In this document: positions 1-56,019 of the stretch, piece after piece
Layout of the letters: each line of letters opens with the position of its first letter
Numbering within the stretch: position 1 is the first letter of the stretch
Translations under genes and position numbers: made by a program
NCBI GenBank assembly: GCA_000165345.1
Contig: CM000434.1
Location: 832,001-896,000, forward strand
Direction of reading: 5' to 3'
Length of the DNA stretch: 64,000 nt
The notes under the pieces: generated by a model
Seen by the model: only the letters and a program-made list of their open reading frames with translations
Databases searched by the model: none
What the model was told of the DNA's origin: nothing

Positions 1-163
1 TTCATAAATTTACGGAGAATTATATTGTCCAAAAAAGTGGAATATGAAGAACTACAGCAAAGGAAAATTTGATTTGGAAGTTTTATCAGGAAAAAAACAC
101 TGAGGGGGATGGCTTTCCCGAAAATAAATAGGCGCCATAAAGACAAAAAAAAAGTGGAAATAC

Positions 164-234
164 AGGAGCTACTGGGAATCGAACCCAGGCTACCGGAATC
201 AAAATCCGGGGTCCTACCGCTAGACTATAGCTCC
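164..234 (-). tRNA. tRNA-Gln (anticodon UUG)
   Basis: The reverse complement of 164..234 is GGAGCTATAGTCTAGCGGTAGGACCCCGGATTTTGATTCCGGTAGCCTGGGTTCGATTCCCAGTAGCTCCT. It has a 7-bp acceptor stem, a GTCT/GGAC D-stem and a CCGGA/TCCGG anticodon stem. The anticodon loop is TTTTGAT with U33, anticodon TTG and A37. The T-stem is CTGGG/CCCAG with loop TTCGATT. No CCA is encoded, as expected for a eukaryotic tRNA. Confidence 0.85.
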
Positions 235-487
235 TTACGCCGCTATGGTGATTTTATAAAGAGTTAATCTATACAAATCAAAATATTAAGCTTAATAAAA
301 CTCAGATAAATTTTTGTTCAAGAAGGAAATTAACAAGGCATTCTATTTAAAGATTAATAAATAGATTATTCAATTAAATATTTTGGAAAATAAACGAAGT
401 TTAAAAAAATTTTTGATGAACTATTATGGAAGAAAATGATCAATGTTAAGTTTTGAGAGATAAAAGTATTAAGAAATAAATAAATAT

Positions 488-21600: not shown

Positions 21601-24600
21601 ATAGTCATATTCACTAATTAGGAAAAGTATCGTGAATAAGTAAATTAATGAAATAATTTGTATGAAGAAGAATAAGTATTTGATAATAGACTGAAGATTT
21701 GTATTTTTTTGAGAGTTTTTTTGCTTAAAATAATTCATTGGAGCATTCAACAAATTACTCTTTGTAGTTTTAATAGTATTCATAGACTTTTTATCCTTAA
21801 TATTTTCTTTTAAAGAGTTATCCTTATAAATATACCAAGGTGATGTGAAAATTAAAGACAATGCCAACAATACTGAATCAATGACTTTTCCTGATGCAGA
21901 TACTGGGAAAATTTCTGCAAAATCTCTTAATCTAAATACAGAATATGGCAATGTATTTAAAAAAGCTTTTCTCGTATATTTGAGAATATTTTTTGTTAAT
22001 AACTGAATTGATGATTTTGACTTAAAATTTGAATTTTGGCTTTCATTAGTTACACCCGATATTCCTCTTTTTTTTTCTTTTTTATTTTGTCTGATTAACC
22101 CACTTTTTGTTTTTTTATTTGAATTTATTTTCTTTTTAATCTTTTCCTTACTCCAATCGTTTATCATGTTTTTGATATAAAAGACTTTGAGATATGATAT
22201 AATTGCCCAAAGTAATATGTAAATTATAGATGTCAATAGAATTGCAGAAGAAACTCGAATAGCTGATGGAATTATATGATTATGAGGACTTGTATTTAAT
22301 AAAGTAATGAATTTTGCTTTTTTAGCCAATAGTTCTTCAAACGTAGTATATGAACTTGATTTATCACAGATTGGATGTTTATTCATCATTCCATAAAGTT
22401 TACTTCTACTTATTAAGGGACCTAAATCAGTAACATTAGCTTTAGCTGGTATTTCTGGTATGTAACCAAGATGAATTTTTTGATAATCACTATTTAGACT
22501 TGGAATATAACATTCAGTTTTTTCACCAATACATTGAGAATCTATCAGCAATGTACTGGATGGATCAAATTCATGTTCATGATCTTGACTAAAAATCATG
22601 GGTACCCATAAGACCTCTTTTATTTGCATAATATTACAAATGTTTGGTAGCTCTATTAAGCAGTTACCCAAATATGTATTTATTCCCATTTTTTTATCCA
22701 TCTTTTTATATAATGCATCAATTCCAGTTTCATGTGTAGGTGTTGTTTCCATATTATCTTGACCAAAATAGTCAAAGTCGTCCAATATTCCTTGTATCTT
22801 CTCATTTAAATTGTTGCTTTGAGTATTTTCAATAGCATCATTAATATTTAGATTCTCTAATCTGTTTTTAAGAGTATGAAGTCCTTGAATCTTTGAAAAA
22901 TCCACGTTCTTTCCTAAGAAGAGTTCAGCTTCATTATTTCTTGGATAATTACAGGTGGAGTTCTGTAAAATTTTGATAATATGTTCAAAACTACTGGAAC
23001 GTACAAATTTGGTCATTTCTGGAGACAATAATTGTTTTACTAGATTGATAGCTTCTCCTAAAGAATCAGTTTTTCGATATTCTGTTTTAGTCTTTGATAA
23101 ATTAACTAATTCATCATTTTTGTCAGTATAATTTTGGAAAAGTTTAGTCTTTTGAGAAAAAATGGTGTCAAAGTTACTAAAAATAGATTCATATTCTCCG
23201 CTAGTATCGTGTTGAGAAATATGATCATCTTCTTCAAAATAACCTCTTCTCATTTCACTTCTCACAAAATTCATTTGTTCTTCAAGTTCATTCTGCTCGT
23301 CCAGCTCATTCTGTTTTTCCACTTCCTTATTGTTTTCAGTAAAATCAAATTGATACTGCAAAAAGAAATCGCGACTAAATTCTGGATTAGAGTAAATACT
23401 ACCTTCAACGGAACTACTGCTCTTTACTTTCTCATTAAAAGTAGTATTTTCTAGCTTTACTGAAACATTTACATCTCTTCCATTTGAATCAGAAGCTGTC
23501 AAACTTTCATTAATATACTGGAAGATTTTATTGTGTTCAATACTATTAATTTTAGCCAAATTATCTAGCTCAGTCTCATCTGAATCAGTCTCTGAATTAG
23601 AATCAATTTCACGAATTTCTCCTTCAATACCATTCGAAAGAATAATAATTCTAACCAAAAGTGTAACGGGAATAGCCATCAAATCATCTAAATTTGGAAA
23701 TTCTGGAGGTAATGAACCCAATAATCTGGAAGCAACTTGGATACTCACTTCTGATGAGTAATCAAGACTTGAAAGTACTTCTGATAGTGTCTGGACTCTT
23801 CCTAAAAGAATATTTCGAATAATATCATCCTTTCCTAAAATTGTTGCAGTAATAAGAGCATGCTGTAATGCATGAATACACCAAAAGCTTTGTAACATTG
23901 CCTCCCTTAATATTGACTGTAATACCACTTTTGACGTATAATTTTTATTTAATAAAAGTAGTAATGATAAGATCGAAATTGAATTATCATACTCTGAAGT
24001 ACCTATAATAGGTATCGATCGTGGTGTAGGAATTGAGTACCTTTTTAAAGGCTTACAAAAACATCTCACGACAAATGAACTGACGTGGAAGTCTATGGCT
24101 GGTGATGAGAGATATTCAACAATTTTATGTTCACCTGTAATATCGTTTCCTGAGCTAACCGCAAGTTCGTACCAAAGAGTTGTATTGGTTTTTGGATTTT
24201 GAAACATAAGCATTTCCTCGAGAATTTGGAACTTAGGCAACTTATTGTTATTGTTTCCAGAAAATTTGAACTCATTAATTTGATCAAACTCTTCAAACAT
24301 TTTAAAAGATTTTTTACTGCTAATAGTTGGTTTATATAAAAGTGAATTTTCTTTATTAAGTTCTCTGCTCTCTTTTAACATCAATTCCTCCTGATAATTG
24401 ATTTTGTAAATAAGGTGGCCAATAGGAAGGTTCCCATATATATCAGGTTCATGAAGTTCGCAAAGTTCAAAATCCAATACCCCAGTATTAGTCTGAAACT
24501 TGTAGAAACTAACCAAAATCCTAATCAGATCTTCATCTCCAAGATGAGCCATCCACCAAAGCAAGTTCCGGCCTTCATTATCCCTAACAATGCATATATC

Positions 24601-25593
24601 CTTGTTATATGCCTTGATTTCTGGGAGTAATAGAGAAAAGATGACTTTTTTATCAAATCCTCTTTTAATTGCAGTAATAATACGAAGAATTTTATCCTTT
24701 GCATTGGCCAACTTTCTGTTAATTTCGGAAAGAGTTGAATTTAAAGGTAACTTTTCATTACTGGAAATATACTCGTTATCAATATTATTCCTCACAATAT
24801 ACTTGGAAAAGGAGGAATGTTCAATTAATTTATTTAATAACTTTTTGTTTCCTGACTCAATAATAAACGAAATCGCATCTTTTCCTTCAAGGGTTAAATC
24901 AGTCATAGATGCTCCGTAGTCCAAAAGCAACTCCAAGAATTCCTCGGTATTTGTTGACATTCCGTCTTTTAATAAGAAATAAAATGGGGTTAGCCCATTT
25001 CTGTCTGGAATATTTGGGTTTGATCCACATTTTAACAGAAAATGAGTCATCCTCAAATTCTTTGAGATTACACTGTAAAATAATGGAGACAAATCCCTAT
25101 TATCTGAGTAATCAATATTGGCTCCGTTAAGTAATAATAATGCCACTAATGGTAAGTTGCTTCTTTGAACAGCATTAATCAATGGACTGATTCCATTCGC
25201 ACCAACTATGTTTACATCTGCTCCATGTTCTATCAAATATAACGAGATAGTATAGGAAATATATCCATTTTGTCTAGTTGAAATGAGTAAGGCAGTTTCT
25301 CCTGTTGAATTAGAAATTGAATTAATATTATTAACGCATAACCTATCAAGCATAGCAGTGATTGCCTCAAGATCCTGTAGCCTAATACTTTCATGGAATT
25401 CATCCACTAAATCAAGACATTCTTCTGTGTAAGCAATATCTTTTTGGCATTCACAGTTATTTTTCTGGATTACATTTACCAATGAATCTGAAATACTGTT
25501 TAATGGGCAACCAATAGGAAATATTTGTTTGGTTCCTATGCAAAACAATATCTTAAACGTTAAAAGAAAAATTGAACATAGATAAATCTTCAT
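18601..25593 (-). CDS. Giant (2330 aa) ankyrin-repeat multi-pass membrane protein, function unknown
   Basis: It is a single uninterrupted ORF starting at an ATG with a signal-like N-terminus, MKIYLCSIFLLTFKILFCIG. N-terminal ANK repeats are present (ETALLISTRQNGY..HGADVNIVGANGISPLINAVQRSNLPLVALLLLNGANIDYSDNRDLSPLFYSV..NGLTPFYFLL). It has long Asn/Ser low-complexity tracts and at least 8 hydrophobic helices in the C-terminal two-thirds. Confidence 0.65.
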   Translation of the reverse strand: MKIYLCSIFLLTFKILFCIGTKQIFPIGCPLNSISDSLVNVIQKNNCECQKDIAYTEECLDLVDEFHESIRLQDLEAITAMLDRLCVNNINSISNSTGETALLISTRQNGYISYTISLYLIEHGADVNIVGANGISPLINAVQRSNLPLVALLLLNGANIDYSDNRDLSPLFYSVISKNLRMTHFLLKCGSNPNIPDRNGLTPFYFLLKDGMSTNTEEFLELLLDYGASMTDLTLEGKDAISFIIESGNKKLLNKLIEHSSFSKYIVRNNIDNEYISSNEKLPLNSTLSEINRKLANAKDKILRIITAIKRGFDKKVIFSLLLPEIKAYNKDICIVRDNEGRNLLWWMAHLGDEDLIRILVSFYKFQTNTGVLDFELCELHEPDIYGNLPIGHLIYKINYQEELMLKESRELNKENSLLYKPTISSKKSFKMFEEFDQINEFKFSGNNNNKLPKFQILEEMLMFQNPKTNTTLWYELAVSSGNDITGEHKIVEYLSSPAIDFHVSSFVVRCFCKPLKRYSIPTPRSIPIIGTSEYDNSISILSLLLLLNKNYTSKVVLQSILREAMLQSFWCIHALQHALITATILGKDDIIRNILLGRVQTLSEVLSSLDYSSEVSIQVASRLLGSLPPEFPNLDDLMAIPVTLLVRIIILSNGIEGEIREIDSNSETDSDETELDNLAKINSIEHNKIFQYINESLTASDSNGRDVNVSVKLENTTFNEKVKSSSSVEGSIYSNPEFSRDFFLQYQFDFTENNKEVEKQNELDEQNELEEQMNFVRSEMRRGYFEEDDHISQHDTSGEYESIFSNFDTIFSQKTKLFQNYTDKNDELVNLSKTKTEYRKTDSLGEAINLVKQLLSPEMTKFVRSSSFEHIIKILQNSTCNYPRNNEAELFLGKNVDFSKIQGLHTLKNRLENLNINDAIENTQSNNLNEKIQGILDDFDYFGQDNMETTPTHETGIDALYKKMDKKMGINTYLGNCLIELPNICNIMQIKEVLWVPMIFSQDHEHEFDPSSTLLIDSQCIGEKTECYIPSLNSDYQKIHLGYIPEIPAKANVTDLGPLISRSKLYGMMNKHPICDKSSSYTTFEELLAKKAKFITLLNTSPHNHIIPSAIRVSSAILLTSIIYILLWAIISYLKVFYIKNMINDWSKEKIKKKINSNKKTKSGLIRQNKKEKKRGISGVTNESQNSNFKSKSSIQLLTKNILKYTRKAFLNTLPYSVFRLRDFAEIFPVSASGKVIDSVLLALSLIFTSPWYIYKDNSLKENIKDKKSMNTIKTTKSNLLNAPMNYFKQKNSQKNTNLQSIIKYLFFFIQIISLIYLFTILFLISEYDYIWFLIGVIITATLCSSVRIYYTHEFVSNYCNKYFCGFSKEYYLYNYYYYKKSVENRKNIRNIYSNLLNCAMNSSTLIKNNYFSHNNNNEYDYDFDCDKSDIDKNSNNKINSEVPILDNQIEISPNMLIPQKLSSQKLSSRNKSHMDLIPELHAQVHHRFGGSFISELNNSQSGSSFSTSNYYINTKASHSYSNEVNGCSVTSQPDSSSNFSSPNTARFNLLGVSSSNVTTFGSRSYSRFTSYSSSSSKYFENNNFADDENLSSSESNEDTNSLGSDLESITKKNDDDKYINRIKLNPNHSKVNKVKVMKKSSVKVKKSSTGGEYICLPDLLSITSTISNDTSSGDKYLRTPWIQNYNSKIESNDINIAFDINSSKSSSFGLVNDKFCSTLSGPAIRITRSNTANKRFKSVLSNYCNRIKNTQQIYQSDTNISSKTSIYINSKRQKKIPSINDNFNNFIKSNNQVKRSIRLRKIRNIISSAEDNLSCDNIRTNIGNVVTNNQIHKPLYRLVDEVSYNTPYEYFNVVITCKIISCIVAMSSNISITLFKSNSYLIRDSTLYFLYNKSPITVYIIECIFTYWISNLIFEILKGLIILLFFVKQRKRLCIVLVQHIPTQFKYSNVQEFIQIVSYWRSAIQHILYKNTKLWTSFLNASVSINTLIFFCIGKIMLVAIYNKKNRIYNNRVSDLSSSTMLSKNPSSNQNLNGLSASGSTNIVRGSFDKDISRILTTSPNIIGGGISTNLLNELNSRSIGDHFMNNFFKTGSFSTNKNQFMDSISNIDYILNSNNEDNYNMNKYNDISSMIDLNDHYYTNIPGEGTNNFINNINLMRSIRSGMNNNDNNPVISHSTLTYSNLASISNIKTSALSFMLTIPQYATSYLSYQGTIPSSSENNMINTYSNCETIFLTMGIVMFIFSSYVIRLLYQINRTSVRTHSWLQNILHRTPPGAGIYIVIEKVLLVINSTPPLLKICGFDITEKLSGFCLYIFTPLAILTFFKFTT

Positions 25594-26180
25594 CTTTATA
25601 ATTCACCTTGATAACTTCAAGTTCATTAAATTTTCATATTATTTGCAGTTTATCTTAATCCAATTTAAATAGTAAATTATCTCATTAATCAGACTTGGAC
25701 TCTGCCTATGAGTTTATTACTTTATTTGATTTCTGAATAACTCTATCGGTGTGTTCAGTTTAATGTTATTGAATTTATTTCAATAGTGTCATTTCAAAGT
25801 TCTGGCACCTAGCTCCTTATAATAGCAAGCTGTATTAATCTTTTTGAAAATGTCTTATTAATTACTGCTGAAATACTAATAACCCGTTTTATTCAACTAA
25901 ATTACCTTATTAAAATTAAATTTCTTTCCTATTTCATTTATTAACATCGCCTTCACCATTAAACTCCCCCCATGTCGGTACCATAAAATAGCAATTTTTC
26001 CGCTCATTAATTGTAAAATTAATTTGCCCACATTAATTTGACAAAAAATTTCAAATCTTTAAATTAATTTACCATTTTTTGTTTTTAATTTAATTTCTTT
26101 AATAATTTTTTTTTTAACCTTTTTAACCCAAAACAATACAATTGCAATATAAATTGTCCACATTGAAAAAAAAAATTTAT

Positions 26181-26284
26181 TGCATGCATGCAATTTACAC
26201 GTAAGATTAAAAAAAGTGTGCATGTGGATGAATAACAATTGAACGAAGCTAATACCGGTATGTGAATTTTACATATTTACGTGG
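26181..26284. promoter_or_regulatory. Motif cluster TGCATGCATGCA, ACACGTAAG, ACCGGT, TACGTGGG upstream of the giant ankyrin gene
   Basis: TGCATGCATGCA is at 26181..26192 and ACCGGT at 26254..26259. ACGTG elements are at about 26199 and about 26279. Confidence 0.35.
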
Positions 26285-26338
26285 GAGAAAAAAAATTATT
26301 TGGAGAAAAAATAAATTATAAAATTAATATTTTAAAAG

Positions 26339-27562
26339 CTAACTATCCCATTGAAAATGGTCAGCAATTGTTAAGAAAACTTCAATAACAAGATCATCAG
26401 GGTTGTTTGACCCAATTCCACTTTTACTATTTGAAGTACTCGACTTGTTCTTATTAGTCGTTTTTGTGATTCTGGCAGAACCATCGGAAAGTCTTTTTGG
26501 CTTGCCGCCCGAAAGAGATGAATCATGCTGTTCTGAAGATTTATTGCCTAAATCTTTATCTTCTTTTCCTGAATTAGCATCAATTGACTTTTTGACATTA
26601 ATTGAGCTACCCCAAGATGCATAGAGTTGGTGCCATATCCTATGTCTTAGAATAGTCCCTGTGTTTACAAGATACTCAATTCTGGAAAGTTTGAAAACAC
26701 CATTTCCCTTCTCAGTAAGCATTTTTATTGACTTTAAAAACTCATAGAAATACATTGCAAGACGGTATCTTGTTAACTGCCTACTCCCTCTTATTAATTC
26801 ATCATCCATAACTTCCAGATGCATAAAATATTGCCTCACAAACCTAACAATATCAATCTCATCAAAAAAGACCTTTGATTGTCCTTTTATTTCTAATCTT
26901 GTATCGCATGTGTGTGGCTGAGGATGCTGGTGATCACAGAAGACTATATGTTCAGCTAAAAGTTTATCTAAAGTCACCACAACATGAGACTTCATTTGAT
27001 CTACAGAAACTGGTAATAACTTGTGATTATGTTTTAGAGCTGCAACTATTGGACTATATTTGAATCTATTAAGAGGTAAATTTCTTCCAGCTTCCAAAAA
27101 GAAAAATCTTATTGCTGCAAACCAGAAATCCATTGTCATTCTAGTTAGTGGAACATTAAAGAAATAGCAATTCTTTAAAGAATATCTAATATAGCCATCA
27201 CAATATCTATTTAACATCTTGCAAACAAGCCTCAATTCTAACAAATATTTATCTTCTACAAAATCAAACAAATTTCTTTTTGCTCTAAGACTCAGCTTTG
27301 AAAATACTTCCAACAATGTTACATTTACTATTGTTATTTCACGCTTTATTACAGGTTTTACTTCTTCTTTTACTTCATTATTTTTATCAGAATTTCCAAC
27401 CAATTTTTTTTCTTCGTTATTCTCATTATCGCTAGAGTGTTTACTTTCATTTCTGTCTAATTCATCTTCGCTTGTATTTGAGCTGCCACTGTTGGATCTC
27501 TCATTGCTACTTTCCTCATTTAATATAGAATTCCAGTTTACTACAAACTCTGATCTTACCAT
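26339..27562 (-). CDS. Hypothetical protein (possible F-box-like N-terminal motif)
   Basis: The 407-aa ORF starts at an ATG. It has Ser/Asn/Glu-rich termini. The segment VTLLEVFSKLSLRAKRNLFDFV...LRLVCKMLNRY resembles the F-box spacing L..E.L..IFS.L....L......VCK.W. There is no other recognised domain. Confidence 0.45.
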   Translation of the reverse strand: MVRSEFVVNWNSILNEESSNERSNSGSSNTSEDELDRNESKHSSDNENNEEKKLVGNSDKNNEVKEEVKPVIKREITIVNVTLLEVFSKLSLRAKRNLFDFVEDKYLLELRLVCKMLNRYCDGYIRYSLKNCYFFNVPLTRMTMDFWFAAIRFFFLEAGRNLPLNRFKYSPIVAALKHNHKLLPVSVDQMKSHVVVTLDKLLAEHIVFCDHQHPQPHTCDTRLEIKGQSKVFFDEIDIVRFVRQYFMHLEVMDDELIRGSRQLTRYRLAMYFYEFLKSIKMLTEKGNGVFKLSRIEYLVNTGTILRHRIWHQLYASWGSSINVKKSIDANSGKEDKDLGNKSSEQHDSSLSGGKPKRLSDGSARITKTTNKNKSSTSNSKSGIGSNNPDDLVIEVFLTIADHFQWDS

Positions 27563-27752
27563 TCCTTATCTCCTCTCCAATAATTAATTTTTTTTTAAAT
27601 TCGTCTTTTTTTCATTATTATATATTTAGACGCTGTGTGAACACACGGCAATTTCCATCTAAATCCTCTAACACTAAGAAAAAAAAAAGAGGCAAGGCAT
27701 TTTTTTTCAATATTAACCTGCAAGCTAACCATTTTCCTAATTATAACTAACG

Positions 27753-28393
27753 TTAAATCTCCTCTCCACTTTCCTCTGTATCAATATCGCTTATATTCAT
27801 TCCATTATCATCCACAATGTATGATTGCATCTTGCAATTTTCCAATGGTGCTTTTTGAATATTCATTATCTATATAAAGAAAAATTAATTAAAACAATAA
27901 ATTTTTTCGAAATTATTAATAAAAACTCTCAATAATCACTTACCTTCTCGACTAAAGAATAGTCACCTTTCGAACATTGGTCGTACATTTCACAAATCAA
28001 CTCAGCGACCTCCAAATCACTATCATCTTCTACAATAGTAGAAAATCTTGTTTCCATTGCTTCCATTAAGAAATTTGCCAAATTATTCGAATTTACCTTC
28101 CTTCCTATAAATTATTAAAAGTTAATTTTTCAATGATTTTTTCCCACCTCTAGTAATAAAGAGTAACAGACGTTTCTACCTACCTGATTGAAAAGACATT
28201 ATTACTTCCTGAATTAATTCTTCACGCTTCTTATTTGCAAACCTGCCTGACCATCCTCCTTCTACTGAAAGGTTCAAAATAGTCCTTAAAATTGTTACTA
28301 TTGATCAAGAATAACATTACAGAACTCAACTCACCATGTGGAAAATACTTGGTTGACTCCTTGTACAAAAACTTGAAAACGTTGTGAGTCCAT
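27753..28393 (-). CDS. TSR2: Pre-rRNA-processing protein TSR2 homolog (eS26 chaperone family), multi-exon; exons 28458..28335, 28264..28184, 28104..27944, 27869..27753; 5-prime end unresolved
   Basis: This gene is absent from the ORF track. Four exons are joined by introns of 70, 79 and 74 nt with GTGAGT, GTAGGT and GTAAGT donors, YAG acceptors and consistent phases. The product reads ...NVFKFLYKESTKYFPHVEGGWSGRFANKKREELIQEVIMSFQSGRKVNSNNLANFLMEAMETRFSTIVEDDSDLEVAELICEMYDQCSKGDYSLVEKIMN... and ends in an acidic tail. The central blocks match the TSR2 core as I remember it (AVENSWGG, FDTVVEDGS). The only ATG (28393..28391) lies in a different frame from the spliced downstream frame. Confidence 0.55.
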
Positions 28394-28556
28394 TGGAATA
28401 TTAAAGCGAGAAAAAATCTTAAAATAATACTAAATGGTCTATATTGTAAATATTCAAGCTATAATTTAGAAAGTTTAAATAAATTATACTTATTCTTCAC
28501 TAATTCTTATATACCTTTTTTTTACCTATTATCTCTCAAATATTTAAAAAAGACTG

Positions 28557-28654
28557 TTGGCGCCTCTTTGTCGAAAAAGTCATGCACAGGTATATGCAAT
28601 ACTTTTGCATGTAGCTATATAAAATGTCATGCACTCATGTGGATAACACGTAAT
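28557..28654. promoter_or_regulatory. E2F-like TTGGCGCC plus four GCATG/CATGCA elements and ACACGTAAT, upstream of TSR2
   Basis: TTGGCGCC is at 28557..28564. CATGCAC, TGCATGTAGC and GTCATGCACTCATGTGG lie in 28581..28642, and ACACGTAAT is at 28646..28654. Confidence 0.35.
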
Positions 28655-28726
28655 AAATGAAAATAATAATAGTGAAAGTTAAGAATGAGTGCTTGAATCA
28701 TTATAAAAAATGAGCTTGGAATCTAT

Positions 28727-29359
28727 TTAATTTTTCTCTAAATAATTAGAGATAATTTCTAATTCAGCTTGGCAGTTATAGCAATTAAATTTCTCAATTT
28801 TGTGAATTTCATCCAGAACTTTGTTATCAAATGGAGTTGACGAATTGTTTGGATATTTCTTATTCGAATCTATTAGCTTCTGCTGAACAAATTCATCAAT
28901 ATTATTTGCGATTATGCAAGTAAAGCTCAAAATAAAGTCATAATTCGATTTAATTAAAGTACAAAGTTTCAAAGAATTATGTAATACTTGGACTCTTTTA
29001 ATACTTGTTATTTTAGAATCTTTATCAGAATTATAATGATTAAAAGTTGAGTACTCATCATTAATCCATTTAATTGTTTTTTCAAGATTTGAAAAATGTT
29101 CTTTAAAAAACTGATTAACATAACTACGTAATTCTGAAGATAAATTTTTGATTCTAGTGGTAAGATCATTTATTATATTAAATCTGCTTGATTGAAGAGT
29201 TTCTTCTGAAGTTTGATTACAAATAATATCATTGGAGAAATGCAGCTCAAGAGTTGCAAGTAAATGAGATATGGCATTAACGGATCTCTGTATATACTTC
29301 GAAAGTGTATTCCAACCTTTCCCAATTTGGTGAGCTATTTCTATGTAAGTTTCCTTCAT
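28727..29359 (-). CDS. Hypothetical protein (210 aa)
   Basis: It is an ATG-initiated ORF with helical character and no motif I recognise. Its 3-prime end abuts the TSR2 promoter region. Confidence 0.45.
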   Translation of the reverse strand: MKETYIEIAHQIGKGWNTLSKYIQRSVNAISHLLATLELHFSNDIICNQTSEETLQSSRFNIINDLTTRIKNLSSELRSYVNQFFKEHFSNLEKTIKWINDEYSTFNHYNSDKDSKITSIKRVQVLHNSLKLCTLIKSNYDFILSFTCIIANNIDEFVQQKLIDSNKKYPNNSSTPFDNKVLDEIHKIEKFNCYNCQAELEIISNYLEKN

Positions 29360-29977
29360 TTTTTCCTATCTGTAATAAGCTACCCTCTCACAAGATAAGA
29401 AAATTGGCAATATAGAAATACTTTGGATCAAGGCAACTATTGGAAACTGGAATAAGTGAATATTTACAAATAAAAATTCAAGTCAAGTCCCCACATTCAC
29501 CCAACAAACTTGAATCAATGCAGAATGTGCTCCATGGAGTAAATATGATAATCTCAATTGCTATAAATTCAACATCAGACAAATCTAAATTGCTCAAGAA
29601 AAAATAAAGCTTATTTTATTCACCTACTATACAAATTTAATTAACCCAATTATATCTTTGTGTTAATATATAATATTTATATTATTATATGGCGACCCTT
29701 TGTTGAGACAAGACGTGCGAGCCCTTAGCACACTAGTAACACGCAGTCTTAATATGAATTTGTATAGATCTTTAAATGGTAATCTGTTGATGAGGGGAAA
29801 GGTCTGAATTTGAAGGTATTAAAAAATTAATCAGTTAAAAAAAAGGTCATGTCAAATTGAGGAGGTAAAGACAAGTAATATTTGCACGAAGGAAAATATC
29901 GAATAAAACTGAGGGTAATTAACCTTGGTGATCTATAAATTATATTAATTAAGTAAATTAATTTAATATAGTTAAAG

Positions 29978-31711
29978 ATGACTACAGTTAGCGAAGCAGT
30001 GAGAAATAGCTGGATGCATATCTTTTCTTTTGACAGTGCTATTCCTAGAAGTAACCAAAGGGAAACGATTGGGGAAGTTTTAAAAGAAATTAATCGCATA
30101 AAGGATGAAATGCAAACATTGCATTTAAGGTTTTCTGACATTGAGCAGGGCAAATTAGACATATTATCAATTGAAAATGTAGAATCTCAATTTGAGAAAC
30201 TTAAACAGCAACTTCAGTTACATACTCTTTTAATCAGCGAGTTAAGAAAGTATCATACTGAAATAGAAGATTTGAAGAATAAGGAAGAATATAGAACTCA
30301 AGAAGAGAGAGAATTGAAGAATGAAATTAGGAAGTTAAAAAGTGATTTCCATTTATTATCCGAGACTGTTAATAGCAGAAATTCAATTCAAAACTCTAAT
30401 ATTCCAAGTATTATATCAAAACTAGAAGGTTTACAGATAGAATTTGATTCTTTAAATAATAGAATGATTAAGAATGAGAAAACTAAGGCTGAAGTTGAAT
30501 CATTAAAAAGAGATGTTGAAAATTTATCAATTATGAAGAAGTCATATGATGATCAGAGTTTTATTATTAAACAAATGAAAGAAGATATTCACTCAATTCA
30601 ATCGGTAATACAAGAAGACATTCCTCAACTCAAAAACGAAATTCAAAGAAAGATGAACAAAACTATACAAGCTACTAATGAGCTTAAGGAAAACTTTGGG
30701 GAGCTTAAGGATCAATTTAAACAGATTACTGAAGAAAGAAGACATGATCACAATGTAATTACTCAATTAGCAACCCAAGCAGAGCAGCTAAGAATACAGA
30801 TACAAACAATAAAGATGAGTCAAAAAGACAGTTCATCTAGTAAAATGAGGCAAGAGGAATTGGTGAATCAATGTGTGAAAAATATCGCAAAATTGGCGGA
30901 AAGTGTTAACAACCTTCAAGAAAAAATTTCCAATCATCTTATCGGATTATCTATCGCAAAGTCTAATAATAGTTTTTCAGTTGTTGGGTCAAAAAGTAAT
31001 TCGCATATTAAAACTCCAATCGTAATTAACAAAACTACTCCAAAAGGTAATTACTATGAAGTAGCAACCAATGGAAGTGAAAACTATAAAAGAATGTCTA
31101 GCAAGTCAAAGAACTCACCAAGAAGTCATAATAAATATACAGGCAATCATTTCACTCTTCCTGATACTCCCTCAACCCAAGCTCCCCCAGTTTTATCATC
31201 CAGTTCTGTGGGAAGACTTAGTTCATTCTTTGGTAACAGAGAGTTGAGTGGAATTGCAAGCTCAAGTAGTCTTACCTCAAGTAACTACATTGAAAGTAGC
31301 AATATTGATAGTGCCAATAATAGTAGACCAACTACAAACAATACTTGTGATCAAGAAGATGATATTATCACGCCTTCAACTATTGAAGAGGAAAGAATTA
31401 TTACAAAAAGAAGAGTATCAACAGATGGATTTTTGCAGGATTGTAGTTTAAAGCACTCTTCCACTAGCTTCCTAGAGATCAAAAGCAGTGTGAACTCTTC
31501 TGAAGAAACCAACTGTACAACTTCTAGTGAAAATTTCTTAATTAGAAATACTCTTCATCCAAGAAGTGATTTAGTTATGATGTCTACATTAACTGAGTCC
31601 AATTCAAAGTTATCATCAAGTATCACCACTCCAAAAAAGTCGGGAGATAGATCCAAGACTACGAGTTGCAATGGCAATCATGCTATATCTGACTTTCTGA
31701 GTCATTTTTAA
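29978..31711 (+). CDS. Coiled-coil protein with Ser-rich C-terminal tail
   Basis: The 577-aa ORF starts at an ATG. The first 330 aa or so are strongly heptad-periodic and rich in K, E, L and Q. The C-terminal 240 aa are Ser/Thr/Asn low complexity. Confidence 0.55.
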   Translation: MTTVSEAVRNSWMHIFSFDSAIPRSNQRETIGEVLKEINRIKDEMQTLHLRFSDIEQGKLDILSIENVESQFEKLKQQLQLHTLLISELRKYHTEIEDLKNKEEYRTQEERELKNEIRKLKSDFHLLSETVNSRNSIQNSNIPSIISKLEGLQIEFDSLNNRMIKNEKTKAEVESLKRDVENLSIMKKSYDDQSFIIKQMKEDIHSIQSVIQEDIPQLKNEIQRKMNKTIQATNELKENFGELKDQFKQITEERRHDHNVITQLATQAEQLRIQIQTIKMSQKDSSSSKMRQEELVNQCVKNIAKLAESVNNLQEKISNHLIGLSIAKSNNSFSVVGSKSNSHIKTPIVINKTTPKGNYYEVATNGSENYKRMSSKSKNSPRSHNKYTGNHFTLPDTPSTQAPPVLSSSSVGRLSSFFGNRELSGIASSSSLTSSNYIESSNIDSANNSRPTTNNTCDQEDDIITPSTIEEERIITKRRVSTDGFLQDCSLKHSSTSFLEIKSSVNSSEETNCTTSSENFLIRNTLHPRSDLVMMSTLTESNSKLSSSITTPKKSGDRSKTTSCNGNHAISDFLSHF

Positions 31712-32266
31712 ATTAATGTGGAATATATTTCAATTGGAGTGGAAGAGAATGCTCAATTCTCGTCTTTTTTACTAAATAGGATTTAATCGCATTATTTAAT
31801 CCCAAGTTCAACTCCCGAATTACAAGAGTTCAACAATTCGAGTTAATATAAGTATTTAAGTAGACGAGTTAAAATTCCGTTACCTTAAGTGTGTATTCAT
31901 AAACTAATTAAGTAAGGAGAGATATTATAATTTATTTAAAGCTACCATATTTTAAATATAAACGAAAGAGAAATGATGTTAAGTGTTGTTTTTTCCCTTA
32001 ATGTTTATTTAAAATACAAATTAAAACAAAAAATAAAGAACAAACTTTTATTTGCACTAATTATGATGAAATAGAAATTAAGTCCCATGATATCTTAAAT
32101 TACTGTGGTTATTACTAAGGAAAAAATAGTTCTGAAATCTAATATCACTCCAGAAAATATGCTCTTGATTCTAGAGTATCATCCTTTTAATTATCTCTAA
32201 TATTAATAATAATCATGTTTAATTTGTATTCCCTTCTTTCTTTTAAATTGAGCATATAATTAGACT

Positions 32267-33772
32267 TTAAATGTCTTCATTTAATAGCTGAGCTTTAATA
32301 TAGTTCCCCTTTAAGGTATGATTAGGAGGAAGTTCTAGCTTAAAGTAAAGTTGAGCATTAGGAACAAATCCAGCTTTTAGTAAAGTAAGTTTTTTGTCTG
32401 GGATAACTTTTAAGATTGGAGGAGATTGATAAACATACCAATTCATGGAGGATATATTTGGATTGATGCAATCCTTAACAGATTGAATTAGATCATAAGT
32501 TGTGTGGTTGGGTCTAAATTGGAGTTGAAGAATATATTTATCTGGAAAAACAACTCTAATTGATGAATGGGAATGAACTTTCCTTTTCAAGAGTGACTTA
32601 AGATATTCATTAGTTCTGCTTTTAAATGTAGGAGCCTTTCCAAGTATTGAATCTTTAATTCTCTGAATTTCAGATTGTTCAAAATGAGAATTGTCATCTT
32701 CATCAAAATCTTCTGGAGATTCCATATCATTGATTGCTTTAACCAAGTTATCAAACTTTTGTATATTCGAAGAATGAATAACAAAGGGCTTAGTGCAAGT
32801 GATATTTCCACTATCTTGGAGATTTTGTTCATCTATAGTCCCATTTTCCATATCTCTTTCCCTTTTCTTGATCTCAGATTCCATTTTTCGCCTTTCTTCA
32901 ATAGCAGATTTCATTAGCTTCCTTGAAACATCATTATTTGTACTAACTGAGGTTGAAGATATATTTGAAACATATGGGTTAAAGTGAGAAATCTTAACTG
33001 AGCCTTCGCCTGAGGTATCAATTGAAGTTAAATCACAAGAGACAAGCTTTGGGTATTCGATCCTGTTTTTCTCACAAAAGATAGCTAATAGATGATGACA
33101 ATCTGTTAAACGAGATATATAAGCAATAGGAAGCTCGAGATATTCCTCTTCTTCTTCTTCTTCTTCTTCTTCTTCTTTGTCCTTAGTAATATCTACAGAA
33201 ATCCTGTGTATTTGGCTTGGTTTAAGCTTCACAATAACAAACCCCACAGACTTTAGCACATTCAATGCTTCTGAAAAGCTTCCAACAGTGGATGCAAATT
33301 TAGGATTTTTCATTTTAATTCTTCTAATTTTTCCTTTTCTAGGCTCTTTAATAATTGAATCAATGATCTTAAATAATATATCAGTTACTGCCTTTAACTT
33401 TTCCTTACAGATTCTGCCTAGTGATTCGACAGAATTATATAGTGATGGAGTCATTTCAAGATTTTCTGGTGTCAAGTACTCGAATTCCCAAGTATCATCT
33501 TCTTTTAATATTTCCTTTACTTCTTCTTTCGAGTCTTCTTCAGCTTTAGGCTCGTTTACTTGTGAAAATATTCGTTTTCTAATCATATCAACCAGCCTTA
33601 AGGGAATATTCATAGTTTCCCATTGCTCATTCGTAACATCCTTTAATAGTTCTATTTTGTCATACCAGTTCTTATTCACAATTGTATCAACAAATATCTT
33701 CATCTCCTGATCTTTCCTCCCCATTTCCTTTCCTAATTCCAATATAAGTTCCTCTACCTCATTTGCACCCAT
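32267..33772 (-). CDS. UBXD1/UBXN6-like p97/Cdc48 cofactor (PUB domain + C-terminal UBX domain)
   Basis: The 501-aa ORF starts at an ATG. It has a PUB/PUG-like block, KGKIRRIKMKNPKFASTVGSFSEALNVLKSVGF. The C-terminal UBX fold carries the RVVFPDKY loop motif and a ubiquitin-like beta pattern through LKAGFVPNAQLYFKL. A Glu12 run is encoded by the (GAA)n repeat. Confidence 0.65.
   Translation of the reverse strand: MGANEVEELILELGKEMGRKDQEMKIFVDTIVNKNWYDKIELLKDVTNEQWETMNIPLRLVDMIRKRIFSQVNEPKAEEDSKEEVKEILKEDDTWEFEYLTPENLEMTPSLYNSVESLGRICKEKLKAVTDILFKIIDSIIKEPRKGKIRRIKMKNPKFASTVGSFSEALNVLKSVGFVIVKLKPSQIHRISVDITKDKEEEEEEEEEEEYLELPIAYISRLTDCHHLLAIFCEKNRIEYPKLVSCDLTSIDTSGEGSVKISHFNPYVSNISSTSVSTNNDVSRKLMKSAIEERRKMESEIKKRERDMENGTIDEQNLQDSGNITCTKPFVIHSSNIQKFDNLVKAINDMESPEDFDEDDNSHFEQSEIQRIKDSILGKAPTFKSRTNEYLKSLLKRKVHSHSSIRVVFPDKYILQLQFRPNHTTYDLIQSVKDCINPNISSMNWYVYQSPPILKVIPDKKLTLLKAGFVPNAQLYFKLELPPNHTLKGNYIKAQLLNEDI
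33145..33177. repeat. (CTT)n / (GAA)n trinucleotide microsatellite, about 11 units, inside the UBX gene (encodes poly-Glu)
   Basis: A CTTCTTCTT... run is visible on the plus strand. Confidence 0.8.
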
Positions 33773-35222: not shown

Positions 35223-35294
35223 GGGGTTATCCGGGAATCGAACCCGGGACCTCATGTACCCGAAACATGAATCATACCACTAGACTAACAACCC
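35223..35294 (-). tRNA. tRNA-Pro (anticodon CGG)
   Basis: The reverse complement is GGGTTGTTAGTCTAGTGGTATGATTCATGTTTCGGGTACATGAGGTCCCGGGTTCGATTCCCGGATAACCCC. The acceptor stem GGGTTGT/ATAACCC has one G-U pair. The anticodon stem is CATGT/ACATG with loop TTCGGGT, giving anticodon CGG. The T-arm is CCGGG-TTCGATT-CCCGG. The D-arm GTCTAG(T/G)GGTATGATTC matches the conserved eukaryotic tRNA-Pro D-arm as I remember it. Confidence 0.85.
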
Positions 35295-39900: not shown

Positions 39901-42900
39901 TCAATTGGTGCTTTAAATATTATTCAAGGTATTACAAAGGATAAAACGAGCTCATTTGACCAGCTTGCTATCCTGTACAGTGCCCCTAAAAAACTTCCAT
40001 CAAGGAATTTTTTGGAGCAGCTTTTTGCAAACTCGAGTCCGATTACATTCAAGCCTCAACAGCAACAACAACAATTCCAGAAACAAAGCTCTAGGAACGA
40101 GACAGGTTCTTCAGATCCTGTTTTAATGTTTGGTATGGGATCTGGAAACAATACAAATGGTGCTTTAGGATCAGTATCTCATGAAAGGATCATGAATTCG
40201 AGTCTAATGAGTGGAAATAGAGACAATGATTTAGATGCAATAATGGCCAGGATTGAGAGCATTGAAAAAAGTCTTGCAAAGTCAGGTTTAGATGGTGGCA
40301 CCGTTTTCAAGGGAGAATTTCCAGTTGGTGGTCCATTTTCTTCACCTTCTGATTCCTCTACTTTCTCATCCTCTTCCACTACCACAACTACTACAACCAC
40401 CAGTCCAGTCAGCACTACAACTTCCAATGCTTCTACTCTAACCAATATAACCACAGAAATTCCTCAAATATTAAATTATACAAACATAAGTAGTTCCAGT
40501 ACATCCACTCCTTCTATTAGTCTCAACACTTCTACCCCTAACATCGTAACAACTCTTCCCTCTAACATCACAACAAACCCTCCTTCCAGCATCACGACAA
40601 ACCCTCCTTCCAGTATCAAAACAAACCCTCCTTCCAGCATCGTAACGACACCTTCCTCCAACATCGCAACAAATACTCCTTCCAATATCACTACTACCAC
40701 CACCACCAGTCCTTCCAGAACTCCCAGAGCCTCTAATCCTCCTCTTACGGAAAACAAAGAAGAAGAATATGGTCACTATAAGGAATCTAACTATAGTCCA
40801 GAAATAATAGGAGTTGTTCTAGATCCAAAGGAAGTAACTGAAGTCTCCAGATTAGTTCATTCCAGTAATGAACATTATAATGAGTACTATGATAGATATG
40901 GAAATCATGATACTGTTGATCACGAATATGAAAATGACGATGGGTACCGACAATACTATATTGATGGAAATGAAGACAAGAATCACAACTACGGCAATAC
41001 ATTTAATTCAGAGGAAAATATGTCAAGAAATCTTTGTTATGAAGAGGAAACCAGGTTTTACAGTCCCTTAGAAATGGCTATACCCGTAGATAATATTGAG
41101 CAGTGTATATTATCCTGTAGTAATACCCCAGACTGTAGATACTATTCGTATGGAGCATTCCTTAAAGGCCCTGGAAGCATTATTGGGACATGTATATTAA
41201 TGCCTGATAAACAAGGATCGGTAGCTTTACCAAACTTCCAATCTGGAGCTCTAGGATGCCCAGTTTCTGCTAGTATTGCTTATGCTCAGGCTATGGAAGA
41301 AAGACTAATACAAGGTATTAGTAATGCAAATGAAAATAGTCAAAAAAGTTCTTCTGCTCAAGTTAATAACAATTTAAACTCGGATTGGCCAGGCATACTT
41401 TCCACCTCTACTGTAGCAGTTAAAAGTATGAGTGGATTCTTATCTAGATTTCCTCTCAACGATATACTTCAAACAAGTATTTCCTTATATAATTCAGGAT
41501 TTCTCGATCAAAAAGGTGCTTTAAGACCAAGTGGAGCTTTTGAAAAGCAAAGTATATTACCCCCTCCTGGAGTTGGATCTCCACATGTAGTATGTACCCT
41601 ACAAGGTATGCAATGTTGTGTCCCACAGAAATCTGCTAAAGGATGGAGAAAAAAGCCACCAAGTTTTCTTAGAGTTGAAGATCCTTCATGCGAAGCTATT
41701 TATGTCTCAAAAACAGATATGTTCTGTGCAACCACATCATTATATGATAACCAGGATATCTCTTCATCAGGATATAATTCACTTGATGATTTTAGAAGCC
41801 AACCCTCATTTTCATCAAATTCTTATAGTACTAATCCAAAACCTTCAGGAAGCTGTGGAATGGTTATAATTGAAACAAGTGAGCATCTTATTTTTCAAAA
41901 CACTCTAAAAATGCCTTCTAAAGAGATGAATAATGCATTATGTGAATGTAAGCTGAATAAAAGAGATAAAAGCATACATGGATCTGGTACTTGGGAATAC
42001 TCAGTACAAGCAGTACAAGCTGCAATGAGTCGCAAAGTTGAAGGAGATCAACTTTCTTCTGGAGTTGCTCAAGCTTTAGCTTGGGTAGAAGCAGTTGGGA
42101 ATGATCCAAATCCAGCAGTGAATGGACTTGGTGAGCTTATTTCCCAAGTTGCTCAAAGACCAAATTCAGATGTTGAGTTAATTACTCAGATACCTGCAAT
42201 TAGTCAAAATGCTGTTTCTAATATGCTTTACAATCAACAACAACAACAGATTGAAGAGCAAGAACAAATTATTAAGAAACAACAATCTATTCAGCAATAC
42301 AATAATATGAGATATTTATTATCTCAAAATGAAACTGATACTAATAACGCTAACACTCAAAGTCAATCAGATCAATGTGTAACAAGTTGGCCAGAAAAAT
42401 GTCAAATTTGGAAATCTAAATGTGAGGATAACTTAATATATGGTTATAAAAATCCTCAATGCGTACCATTGACTATTTTAGAGAATGGATGTCCAATGAA
42501 ACAGGTTGGATTCAAGGTGAATCAAATAAATCCAGGAATTTTGAGCTTCAGTTTTAAACCTATGAGATTTTCAGATAATTCACCATTCAGAATTGCTTGT
42601 CAGTTTTCACTCATCAAATGTACTCTAGCAAATATTAAAAGCAAATGTAAATCAAATGGTACTAATAACTTTAAGAAACCAAAGAATTTGAACGGAGACG
42701 ATGAAAACAATGCAATTAATAACATTAGAAAACATTTAAATAATCATAAAAATCAAAATAATAATAAAAATAACAACTTATTTCACAGAAAAGACACTAA
42801 TGATAAAAGTAAAAATAATGAACTAAAACATTTATTCAAAATTCCAATGAACTATCTTCCGTATATTCCAAAAGATACAGGAGAAAGTGACGAGAAATCT

Positions 42901-53533: not shown

Positions 53534-54324
53534 TTGGATAACTTTAAAAATAACAAGTTAAAAGGGCAAATGTTTATTTAATATTTTGAAATGTATAGTT
53601 TATCTACAGTACAGAGCTCATTGTTTGAGTGATGAACTTTAAGTCTTGGCTAATGGGAGAAGCAGGAAAGTCAGAACAGGAAACAAAAGATTTAACTTCT
53701 TTAGAAAATTAAAATCTTTTTATTAGACAGATTAGGATAACTATTTCAGATAAATGTTTATAAACACCCATAAATTCCAGTAATATTTATGGAGATACGT
53801 GGTAGTGGCGATATGGTTGGCGGGCCATAAGAGGAAAAGTTATAAAATAACTCAAAGCAGATAAGCCAAAGAGTTGTTAATTAAGAGCGGAAAGATTAAG
53901 TACAATAAAAAGAAATAGAAATTTATGTTAGATGATGGAACATTAGAATTAGGAAATGTGTTGATTCAGTTTAATTCCTTTAAATTTTTTAATATCAAAT
54001 TTGCATGTAAATTTTTTTTTTATCAAATAATTCAGTATCGATAATATATAAATTTATGCTTGGAATTTAGCCAAAAAGGCGCCAACCAGGCTTGCATGTC
54101 TCGTATTCGAGTATACTAAGGATAGTATATTATATTGGATATTGGGGGAATTAATAATATAAAAAAGATAGGCGCATGGACAGAGAGGATACTGCACACC
54201 AATATTGTATATATAAAGAAATAACCCACTTTATTTAGTTGAATCTTAGATAGATAAACTAATATTTTCGATATTTCTTAATTTTTTTTTTAAAAATTTG
54301 GAAGTGAAGCAAAACTTTTGCTAA

Positions 54325-55386
<1,062 letters not shown>

Positions 55387-55962
55387 ACTAGAACTTAAAG
55401 ATAAGTAAGAACGGAGTAAAACTTTTCGATACATAAACTCTCAAATTGGCATCATTTTATCGGCAATTGTTTTGCAAACCCTTTCAATGTCAACATGTTT
55501 TTCTCTGGCGCAAGCTACCATCTATCTCAATCGGATTTAAACATAAATGCCAACTTTCCCTGCTTCAAATCATCCTCTGCCACCACAGTTCTCTCGACTA
55601 CTCGTAGGGAAATACTGATGTTAAATTGCTAGCGTTGAAAGTGGTTCTTTGGGGGGTCCAGGGAGTTAGCGAGTTGTGTGTAAATGAACATTTACTACCA
55701 AGACTTACTATCGCATGCAGTTTAATCGCCTTTGAAGACTTTCTTCATTATTAGTGTCAAATAGTTTATTTCTCTGTTAATCGAAATGTTAATTACTCAA
55801 TTTCAATCTCAATTAGACCCTTTTTTCTCGAAAAATCGATCTGAGCTTTACTTCATTTAGTTTAATGTTTAGGAGCGAACTGTCCACATAAAATTAGTCA
55901 AGCATTACGTATATTGCTATTATGCTTTGCATGAATGGGGGGCGAAATAGTATTTTTTTATA

Positions 55963-56019
55963 CCGGTATGCAAGTGGAGTGCAAAGAAATTACTAATTTG
56001 CATGTTTTTGGCGCCAAAG
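55963..56019. promoter_or_regulatory. ACCGGT + TGCATG + palindromic E2F-like TTTGGCGCCAAA upstream of hexokinase
   Basis: ACCGGT is at 55963..55968, TGCATG at 55999..56004 and TTGGCGCCAAA at 56009..56019. The cluster lies about 215 bp upstream of the hexokinase ATG. Confidence 0.4.

What the first reader, a model, noticed from the sequence alone, without database searches (positions are those of the whole stretch)
27753..28564. TSR2 homologue missed by the ORF track: 5 exons, and the only ATG is out of frame with the spliced body
Four cleanly phased exons encode a recognisable TSR2 core. The acceptor-delimited open frame of the first of these (28458..28335) contains no ATG. The single ATG downstream of the promoter motifs (28393..28391, MDSQRFQVFVQGVNQVFSTW) is in the +1 frame relative to the frame that splices correctly. 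That reading also shows TSR2-like spacing, R-F-x3-V-x-W. Possible explanations are a sequencing indel near 28340-28390, an unusual or missed first intron, a non-AUG start, or a tiny upstream start exon. A candidate tiny exon is ATGCAAAA|GTATTG at about 28607, spliced to the acceptor TTTTAAG|A, which yields MQKFFLALIFQWTHNVFKF... but would place the GGCGCC motif inside an intron.
Basis: partly seen in the sequence, partly recalled or inferred. Interest (0 to 1): 0.55.

Follow-up and report, generated by a model that had tools for sequence, protein, structure and literature searches.

The report
Ordinary four-exon Cryptosporidium TSR2 gene

Summary
The window is Cryptosporidium parvum chromosome 6 (99.99% identical to CP029785.1). 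On the minus strand at 28393..27753 lies a real TSR2 homologue. It has four exons, not five: 28393..28335, 28284..28184, 28104..27944 and 27869..27753, encoding 145 aa.

The real acceptor is AAG (28287..28285). With it, ATG 28393 reads straight through to the stop codon.

Four lines of evidence support this:
- The Pfam WGG/TSR2 match rises from 51 bits (profile positions 19-80) to 75 bits (1-80 of 80).
- The protein is 100% identical over its full length to the annotated C. parvum protein CPHLJ_6g3665.
- An intron-less 564-nt public contig equals the window exons joined at exactly these junctions. Its 91-nt 5' leader is collinear with the genome and has no ATG.
- Six Cryptosporidium species keep all three introns at the same positions. 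In four of them the decoy CAG is destroyed by synonymous changes within Leu-Ser-Val.

No indel, non-AUG start or upstream mini-exon is needed. The gene is already known and of low interest.

The parts
28394..28484 (-). 5' UTR, minimum extent. It has no ATG and has in-frame stops upstream of the start codon.
   Evidence: The 5' part of the intron-less contig L004 is collinear with the window here.
28335..28393 (-). Exon 1 coding part (59 nt). ATG at 28393..28391, encoding MDSQRFQVFVQGVNQVFST plus the first two bases of Trp20.
   Evidence: It matches Pfam WGG profile positions 1-12. Differences between species are mostly synonymous.
28285..28334 (-). Intron 1, 50 nt, GTGAGT...TTTTAAG, phase 2.
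   Evidence: The junction ACATG|GACTATT is present in L004. The position and phase are the same in six species.
28184..28284 (-). Exon 2 (101 nt). It completes Trp20 and encodes TILNLSVEGGWSGRFANKKREELIQEVIMSFQS.
28265..28267 (-). It lies inside the codons CTT TCA GTA (Leu25-Ser26-Val27).
   Evidence: Splicing here gives a 418-nt, frameshifted CDS with many stops. The CAG is absent in C. ubiquitum, C. canis, C. felis and C. xiaoi through synonymous changes.
28105..28183 (-). Intron 2, 79 nt, GTAGGT...TTATAG, phase 1.
27944..28104 (-). Exon 3 (161 nt). It encodes the conserved core, including IVEDDSDLEVAELICEMY.
27870..27943 (-). Intron 3, 74 nt, GTAAGT...TATATAG, phase 0.
27753..27869 (-). Exon 4 coding part (117 nt including the TAA stop at 27755..27753). 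It ends in the short acidic tail DIDTEESGEEI.
27718..27752 (-). 3' UTR, minimum extent.
   Evidence: The 3' end of contig L004 is collinear with the window.
28559..28564 (.). GGCGCC palindrome, an E2F/DP-like promoter motif. It lies 171 nt upstream of the ATG and about 75 nt upstream of the 5' end of the transcript contig.
   Evidence: Expected count in this 333-nt spacer is 0.0015. It is present upstream of TSR2 in 5 of 6 species, at -105 to -182. The core [C/G]GCGC[G/C] is described as the most abundant upstream motif in C. parvum (PMC3734150).
28581..28633 (-). Two copies of GTGCATGAC (TGCATG at 28633..28628 and 28586..28581), which are possible upstream elements.
   Evidence: A single TGCATG is found upstream of the gene in C. 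canis, C. felis and C. xiaoi. Function was not tested.

Best explanation
The locus is the single-copy TSR2 gene of Cryptosporidium parvum, annotated as CPHLJ_6g3665. It has four exons on the minus strand and three canonical GT-AG introns of 50, 79 and 74 nt. Translation starts at the plain AUG at 28393. Intron 1 runs from the donor at 28334 to the AAG acceptor at 28287..28285, so Trp20 is split TG|G and the frame continues into TILNLSVEGGWSG....

Shown here: the gene structure, its transcription and splicing, and its membership of the TSR2/WGG family.

Inferred from the yeast and human work: the 145-aa protein most likely acts like Tsr2 there. That protein is a small helical, acidic-tailed 'escortin' that takes the newly imported ribosomal protein eS26 from its importin and hands it to the maturing 40S subunit. 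Transcription is probably driven by the conserved E2F-like GGCGCC element about 170 nt upstream of the ATG.
For: 1. Model A gives an open 438-nt CDS.
2. The ATG exon plus the disputed 20 nt therefore encode the missing N-terminal part of the domain.
3. phmmer against yeast Tsr2 (PDB 6G03) gives E = 8.4e-12, ungapped from residue 7 to 109, running across the exon 1/2 junction.
4. Model A is 100% identical at 100% coverage to an annotated C. parvum protein, and 99% identical to the C. hominis, C. meleagridis and C. tyzzeri proteins named TSR2.
5. Contig L004 (ENA ERZ21845938, 564 nt) equals window 28484..28335 + 28284..28184 + 28104..27944 + 27869..27718 base for base. The version spliced at CAG does not match.
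6. All three introns sit at the same position and phase in C. parvum, C. ubiquitum, C. canis, C. felis, C. xiaoi and C. serpentis. The decoy CAG is removed by synonymous changes in four of them. Across codons 1-33, nucleotide differences are concentrated at third positions, for example 17 of 20 in C. canis.
7. There is no indel in exon 1 in four assemblies.
8. The function of Tsr2 is taken from PMC6131548 and PMC4161973.
Against: - The nature of sample ERZ21845938 (RNA-derived or not) could not be checked. That L004 is a transcript is inferred from the absence of all three introns together with flanks collinear with the genome.
- Most residues that contact the eS26 ESS2 segment in yeast are not conserved here: Y41, W65, I69, D95, E96 and Y132 align with S18, E42, E46, T72, R73 and M109. 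The details of eS26 binding may therefore differ.
- The eponymous WGG motif is WSG here.
- The structure model was too weak to confirm the fold (pLDDT 62.6).
Confidence: 0.97

Rival explanations
1. The frame conflict is real. In this view the gene needs a sequencing-error correction, a non-AUG start, or a tiny upstream start exon (ATGCAAAA|GT at about 28607 spliced to TTTTAAG|A at about 28418).
For: With the CAG acceptor the body of the protein is in frame with an ATG-less open frame, 28458..28335.
Against: - Exon 1 is identical and indel-free in four assemblies.
- L004 runs collinear with the genome through the proposed acceptor at about 28418 and contains the AAG junction.
- The ATG-frame peptide is conserved in six species with mostly synonymous differences.
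Confidence: 0.01
2. Both acceptors are used. AAG at 28285 gives the productive mRNA. CAG at 28265 gives a minor isoform with a frameshift and an early stop, either as splicing noise or as a way to down-tune TSR2.
For: The CAG sits behind a good pyrimidine tract (CCTTTCAG), only 20 nt downstream of the AAG. It is also retained in the diverged assemblies L002 and L003 and in C. serpentis.
Against: - The CAG is lost in four of six species, so it is not conserved as a splice signal.
- Where it is kept, codon usage for Leu-Ser-Val explains it.
- The only transcript-like contig shows the AAG junction.
- A pattern scan for either isoform in JGI metagenome contigs found nothing, which is uninformative.
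Confidence: 0.07
3. The locus is a decaying or untranscribed pseudogene fragment that merely resembles TSR2.
For: No long ORF is present. The original annotations missed or truncated the gene: P0010 is a 97-aa C. parvum model that starts at Met49.
Against: - The spliced ORF is intact in six species.
- Third-position changes dominate.
- Introns diverge faster than exons: 62% against 89% identity with C. ubiquitum.
- An intron-less contig exists.
Confidence: 0.01

Closest known systems
C. parvum CPHLJ_6g3665 and its orthologues named 'Pre-rRNA-processing protein TSR2' in C. hominis, C. meleagridis, C. tyzzeri and C. ubiquitum
   Same: The protein is identical (145 aa, 100% identity, 100% coverage). 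The gene span is the same, 641 nt, in CP029785.1.
   Different: Nothing. This is the same gene. Only the older or automatic models differ: P0010 (97 aa, C. parvum), P0011 (131 aa, C. felis) and P0009 (157 aa, C. xiaoi) deviate at the N-terminus or at intron 1.
Saccharomyces cerevisiae Tsr2, the eS26 escortin (PDB 6G03/6G04; PMC6131548, PMC4161973)
   Same: - Same Pfam family, PF10273.
- 32% identity over 103 ungapped residues, E = 8.4e-12.
- Conserved Trp20 (yeast W43), the W-x-G motif and the VEDDS motif.
- Predicted all-helical domain followed by an acidic C-terminus.
   Different: - Shorter: 145 aa, with no N-terminal extension and a short acidic tail, where yeast has a long one starting near residue 160.
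- WGG is WSG.
- Most yeast residues that contact eS26-ESS2 are substituted: Y41S, W65E, I69E, D95T, E96R, Y132M.
- Binding to eS26 has not been tested in Cryptosporidium.
Human TSR2, the X-linked Diamond-Blackfan anaemia gene (E64G mutant described in PMC6131548)
   Same: Same family, and the same presumed role in delivering eS26.
   Different: It was not compared residue by residue here. The disease relevance does not transfer to the parasite.

Membership tests
TSR2 / WGG domain family (Pfam PF10273) | The whole-protein score is above Pfam's gathering threshold. | tested here: met
   75.2 bits against a cutoff of 26.8, E = 5.6e-21.
TSR2 / WGG domain family (Pfam PF10273) | The domain is covered end to end, including the N-terminal helix. 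| tested here: met
   Profile positions 1-80 of 80 align to residues 9-88. This happens only with the ATG exon and the AAG acceptor.
TSR2 / WGG domain family (Pfam PF10273) | Significant sequence similarity to an experimentally characterised member. | tested here: met
   Yeast Tsr2 (6g03_A): E = 8.4e-12, query residues 7-109 aligned to chain residues 34-136, ungapped.
TSR2 / WGG domain family (Pfam PF10273) | The eponymous Trp-Gly-Gly motif. | tested here: inconclusive
   The motif is W31-S32-G33 here. It is WSG in five Cryptosporidium species and WAG in C. serpentis. Trp and the second Gly are kept. Whether the first Gly is required is not known to me.
TSR2 / WGG domain family (Pfam PF10273) | A helical Tsr2-N fold. 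| tested here: inconclusive
   The AlphaFold2 model, built from a 14-sequence alignment, has mean pLDDT 62.6. It predicts five helices (3-19, 34-52, 59-73, 81-98, 103-109), but Foldseek against the PDB gave no match with E <= 0.001. The model is too weak to judge.
TSR2 / WGG domain family (Pfam PF10273) | An acidic C-terminal tail. | tested here: met
   The last 11 residues, DIDTEESGEEI, include six Asp or Glu. The tail is much shorter than in yeast.
Yeast-type Tsr2:eS26-ESS2 interface (a question of mechanism, not of family membership) | Conservation of the contact residues Y41, D64/W65/I66, I69, D95/E96 and Y132 listed in PMC6131548. | tested here: not met
   They map to S18, E41/E42/L43, E46, T72/R73 and M109. 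Only D64 to E and I66 to L are conservative changes.
Yeast-type Tsr2:eS26-ESS2 interface (a question of mechanism, not of family membership) | Physical binding to eS26 and release of eS26 from its importin. | not testable with these tools
   This needs biochemistry.
Canonical spliceosomal GT-AG introns | GT donor, AG acceptor, and junctions seen in a spliced molecule. | tested here: met
   The three introns are GTGAGT..AAG, GTAGGT..TAG and GTAAGT..TAG. All three junctions are present in L004. AAG acceptors make up 6 of the 18 introns of this gene across six species.

The most novel reading that the evidence does not exclude
The tandem 3' splice sites of intron 1 (AAG at 28285 and CAG at 28265, 20 nt apart) might both be used. 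The downstream site would yield a frameshifted, unproductive mRNA, which would give C. parvum a splicing-level throttle on TSR2 and hence on eS26 supply.
Probability: 0.04. Interest if true: 0.25.

Novelty: already known. Interest (0 to 1): 0.05.

Why it matters
It matters little biologically. The gene, its four-exon structure and its 145-aa product are already in public annotation.

The value is methodological. In this compact, intron-poor genome about 10.8% of genes have introns, per PMC4637869. Short multi-exon genes are therefore invisible to ORF tracks. A pyrimidine-rich CAG inside coding sequence can also mislead manual or automatic splice-site choice.

The same intron has tripped up database models. 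The C. felis and C. xiaoi entries, and an older truncated C. parvum entry, look wrong at exactly this point and could be corrected from the conserved model given here.

Tried and rejected
1. Both lose Pfam profile positions 1-18.
2. Sequencing indel: rejected by the alignment of four assemblies.
3. Structure route: the AlphaFold2 model had pLDDT 62.6, and Foldseek against the PDB gave only meaningless hits with E above 0.8, so nothing was learned.
4. A scan of JGI metagenome contigs for either spliced isoform (pattern with a 0-20 nt gap) gave 0 hits. It is uninformative, because that collection probably holds no Cryptosporidium transcripts.
5. A literature search for the presumed gene id cgd6_3665 found 0 papers.
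6. An Rfam and tRNA scan of the window found no RNA gene at the locus, only two tRNAs elsewhere.

Full report
**What the sequence is.** The window has about 30% G+C. Its stretch 23753..32393 is 99.988% identical, without gaps, to Cryptosporidium parvum chromosome record CP029785.1, positions 852914-861554. The finding therefore lies in the compact, intron-poor genome of an apicomplexan parasite. In that genome about 10.8% of genes have introns, with a mean intron length of about 99 nt (PMC4637869).

**Checking the observation.** I read 27500..28900 on the minus strand.
- The GTGAGT donor follows at 28334.
- No ORF of 60 aa or more covers the locus. The pieces are 50, 45, 37 and 33 aa, so 'missed by the ORF track' is correct.

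Two AG dinucleotides could end intron 1: TTTTAAG| at 28287..28285 and CCTTTCAG| at 28267..28265.
Exon 1 in the ATG frame ends with two bases of a codon (TG), whereas the body after the CAG needs one base, so the frames appear to be off by one.
- With the first acceptor, TG|G completes Trp20 and the frame runs on as ACT ATT TTG AAC CTT TCA GTA GAA GGA GGA TGG (TILNLSVEGGW).
- The four exons 28393..28335, 28284..28184, 28104..27944 and 27869..27753 then sum to 438 nt. That is 145 codons plus TAA, with introns of 50, 79 and 74 nt, all GT..AG.
- With the CAG acceptor the CDS is 418 nt, frameshifted and full of stops.
- The 'CAG' is simply the end of codon Ser26 (TCA) plus the first base of Val27 (GTA).

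**Four independent tests of the AAG model.**

1. Family profile. The 145-aa product matches Pfam PF10273 (WGG, 'Pre-rRNA-processing protein TSR2') at 75.2 bits, E = 5.6e-21, covering profile positions 1-80 of 80. The ATG exon plus the disputed 20 nt therefore supply exactly the missing N-terminal 18 profile positions. Yeast Tsr2 (PDB 6G03) aligns without gaps from residue 7 to 109, across the exon 1/2 junction, with E = 8.4e-12.

2. Existing annotation. The product is 100% identical over 100% of its length to the annotated C. parvum protein CPHLJ_6g3665. UniRef names it a pre-rRNA-processing protein TSR2 homologue. It is 99% identical to the proteins of C. hominis, C. meleagridis and C. tyzzeri. 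The called gene spans 641 nt in three assemblies, the same as 28393..27753.

3. A spliced molecule. The protein is also encoded, without interruption, on a 564-nt contig from ENA assembly ERZ21845938 (L004). That contig is identical base for base to window 28484..28335 + 28284..28184 + 28104..27944 + 27869..27718. The CAG-spliced concatenation does not match. A contig that lacks all three introns yet carries 91 nt of collinear 5' flank and 35 nt of 3' flank is best explained as assembled from RNA. I could not check the sample metadata, so that step is an inference. The 91-nt leader has no ATG and has in-frame stops. This excludes the mini-exon model for this molecule and leaves the GGCGCC motif upstream of the transcript rather than inside an intron.

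4. Comparative evidence. I fetched the orthologous loci of C. ubiquitum, C. canis, C. felis, C. xiaoi and C. serpentis. For each I searched exhaustively for the three-intron GT-AG model that best matches the C. parvum protein.
- All six species have the three introns at identical positions and phases. Intron 1 always splits TG|G of the conserved Trp and is followed by ACT.
- In four species the decoy is gone: CTT TCT GTG, CTG TCC GTG, TTA TCG GTG and TTA TCT GTA. All still encode Leu-Ser-Val.
- Over codons 1-33, differences from C. parvum fall overwhelmingly on third positions. The counts by codon position are 1/0/10 for C. ubiquitum, 2/1/17 for C. canis and 3/1/18 for C. felis. Synonymous codon changes outnumber non-synonymous ones by 10:1, 16:2 and 16:2.
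- Intron 1 diverges much faster than the coding sequence: 62% against 89% identity with C. ubiquitum.
- Four assemblies show no indel anywhere in exon 1. The substitutions in the more distant pair fall in the 5' UTR, in the intron and at one synonymous site.

**What the gene does (inferred).** In yeast, Tsr2 is an 'escortin'. [quoted passage not shown] It releases eS26 independently of RanGTP, shields it, and passes it to the pre-40S particle. Loss of Tsr2 causes 20S pre-rRNA to accumulate. A human TSR2 E64G mutation is linked to Diamond-Blackfan anaemia (PMC4161973, PMC6131548).

The Cryptosporidium protein shares the domain, the conserved Trp (yeast W43, here W20), the VEDDS motif and an acidic C-terminus. 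I therefore expect the same role.

There are caveats. I mapped yeast residue numbers through the ungapped alignment. The residues that the NMR study lists as contacts for the eS26 ESS2 segment are mostly replaced here (Y41S, W65E, I69E, D95T, E96R, Y132M), and WGG is WSG. The binding details may have co-evolved with the parasite's eS26. An AlphaFold2 model from the shallow 14-sequence alignment was all-helical but of low confidence (pLDDT 62.6). It gave no meaningful Foldseek hit, so the fold could not be confirmed structurally.

**Promoter region.** The 333-nt spacer between the upstream gene's stop codon (28727) and the ATG contains one GGCGCC, at 28564..28559.
- The expected count from base composition is 0.0015.
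- A GGCGCC is present upstream of TSR2 in five of the six species, at -105 to -182.
- The window as a whole holds 11 copies against 0.8 expected.
- This matches the E2F/DP-like core [C/G]GCGC[G/C]. That core is reported as the most abundant upstream motif in C. parvum and as over-represented upstream of ribosomal-protein genes and in clusters enriched for RNA-processing functions (PMC3734150).

**Verdict.** The anomaly is not real, and there are four exons, not five. The gene is already annotated with exactly the structure derived here. The only residual, low-probability point of interest is whether the downstream CAG is occasionally used as an alternative, unproductive acceptor. It is not conserved as such. 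Novelty: already known. Interest: low.

Noticed in passing
L009:1501-2130 (C. felis) and L008:1501-2201 (C. xiaoi): The database protein models for these orthologues deviate from the conserved structure exactly at intron 1. P0011 (131 aa) lacks TLLNLSVEGGWSGR, and P0009 (157 aa) has a 10-aa insertion, CVVLYLLLILR. The conserved four-exon model gives clean 145-aa and 147-aa proteins, so these entries look mis-annotated.
   Followed up: yes
window 27753..28200 (-): An older C. parvum database model (P0010, 97 aa, 'hypothetical predicted protein, unknown function') starts at the internal Met49 in exon 2. Earlier annotators also failed to find exon 1 and intron 1.
   Followed up: partly
whole window; 28559..28564 in particular: GGCGCC occurs 11 times in the 64-kb window against 0.8 expected from base composition. 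This fits the reported genome-wide over-representation of E2F-like motifs in C. parvum upstream regions. The other ten sites were not examined.
   Followed up: partly
window 163..235 (-) and 35223..35294 (-): Two tRNA genes, tRNA-Gln(TTG) and tRNA-Pro(CGG), were found by both ARAGORN and Rfam.
   Followed up: no
window 28727..29359 (-) and about 26339..27562 (-): The neighbours of TSR2 lie on the same strand. The upstream one is a 210-aa intron-less ORF and the downstream one a gene of about 407 aa. Neither has a Pfam hit on record. The same gene order is kept in all six Cryptosporidium species examined. The spacers are only about 190-330 nt.
   Followed up: no
window 27753..28393 (-), protein residues 18, 42, 46, 72, 73, 109: The yeast Tsr2 residues that contact the eS26 ESS2 segment are mostly non-conservatively replaced in the Cryptosporidium protein. 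This hints at a diverged or co-evolved interface. The parasite's eS26 was not examined.
   Followed up: partly
window 40001..42000 and 54001..56000: Two 2-kb bins have clearly higher G+C (0.37-0.38) than the rest of the window (0.26-0.33). The cause was not examined.
   Followed up: no
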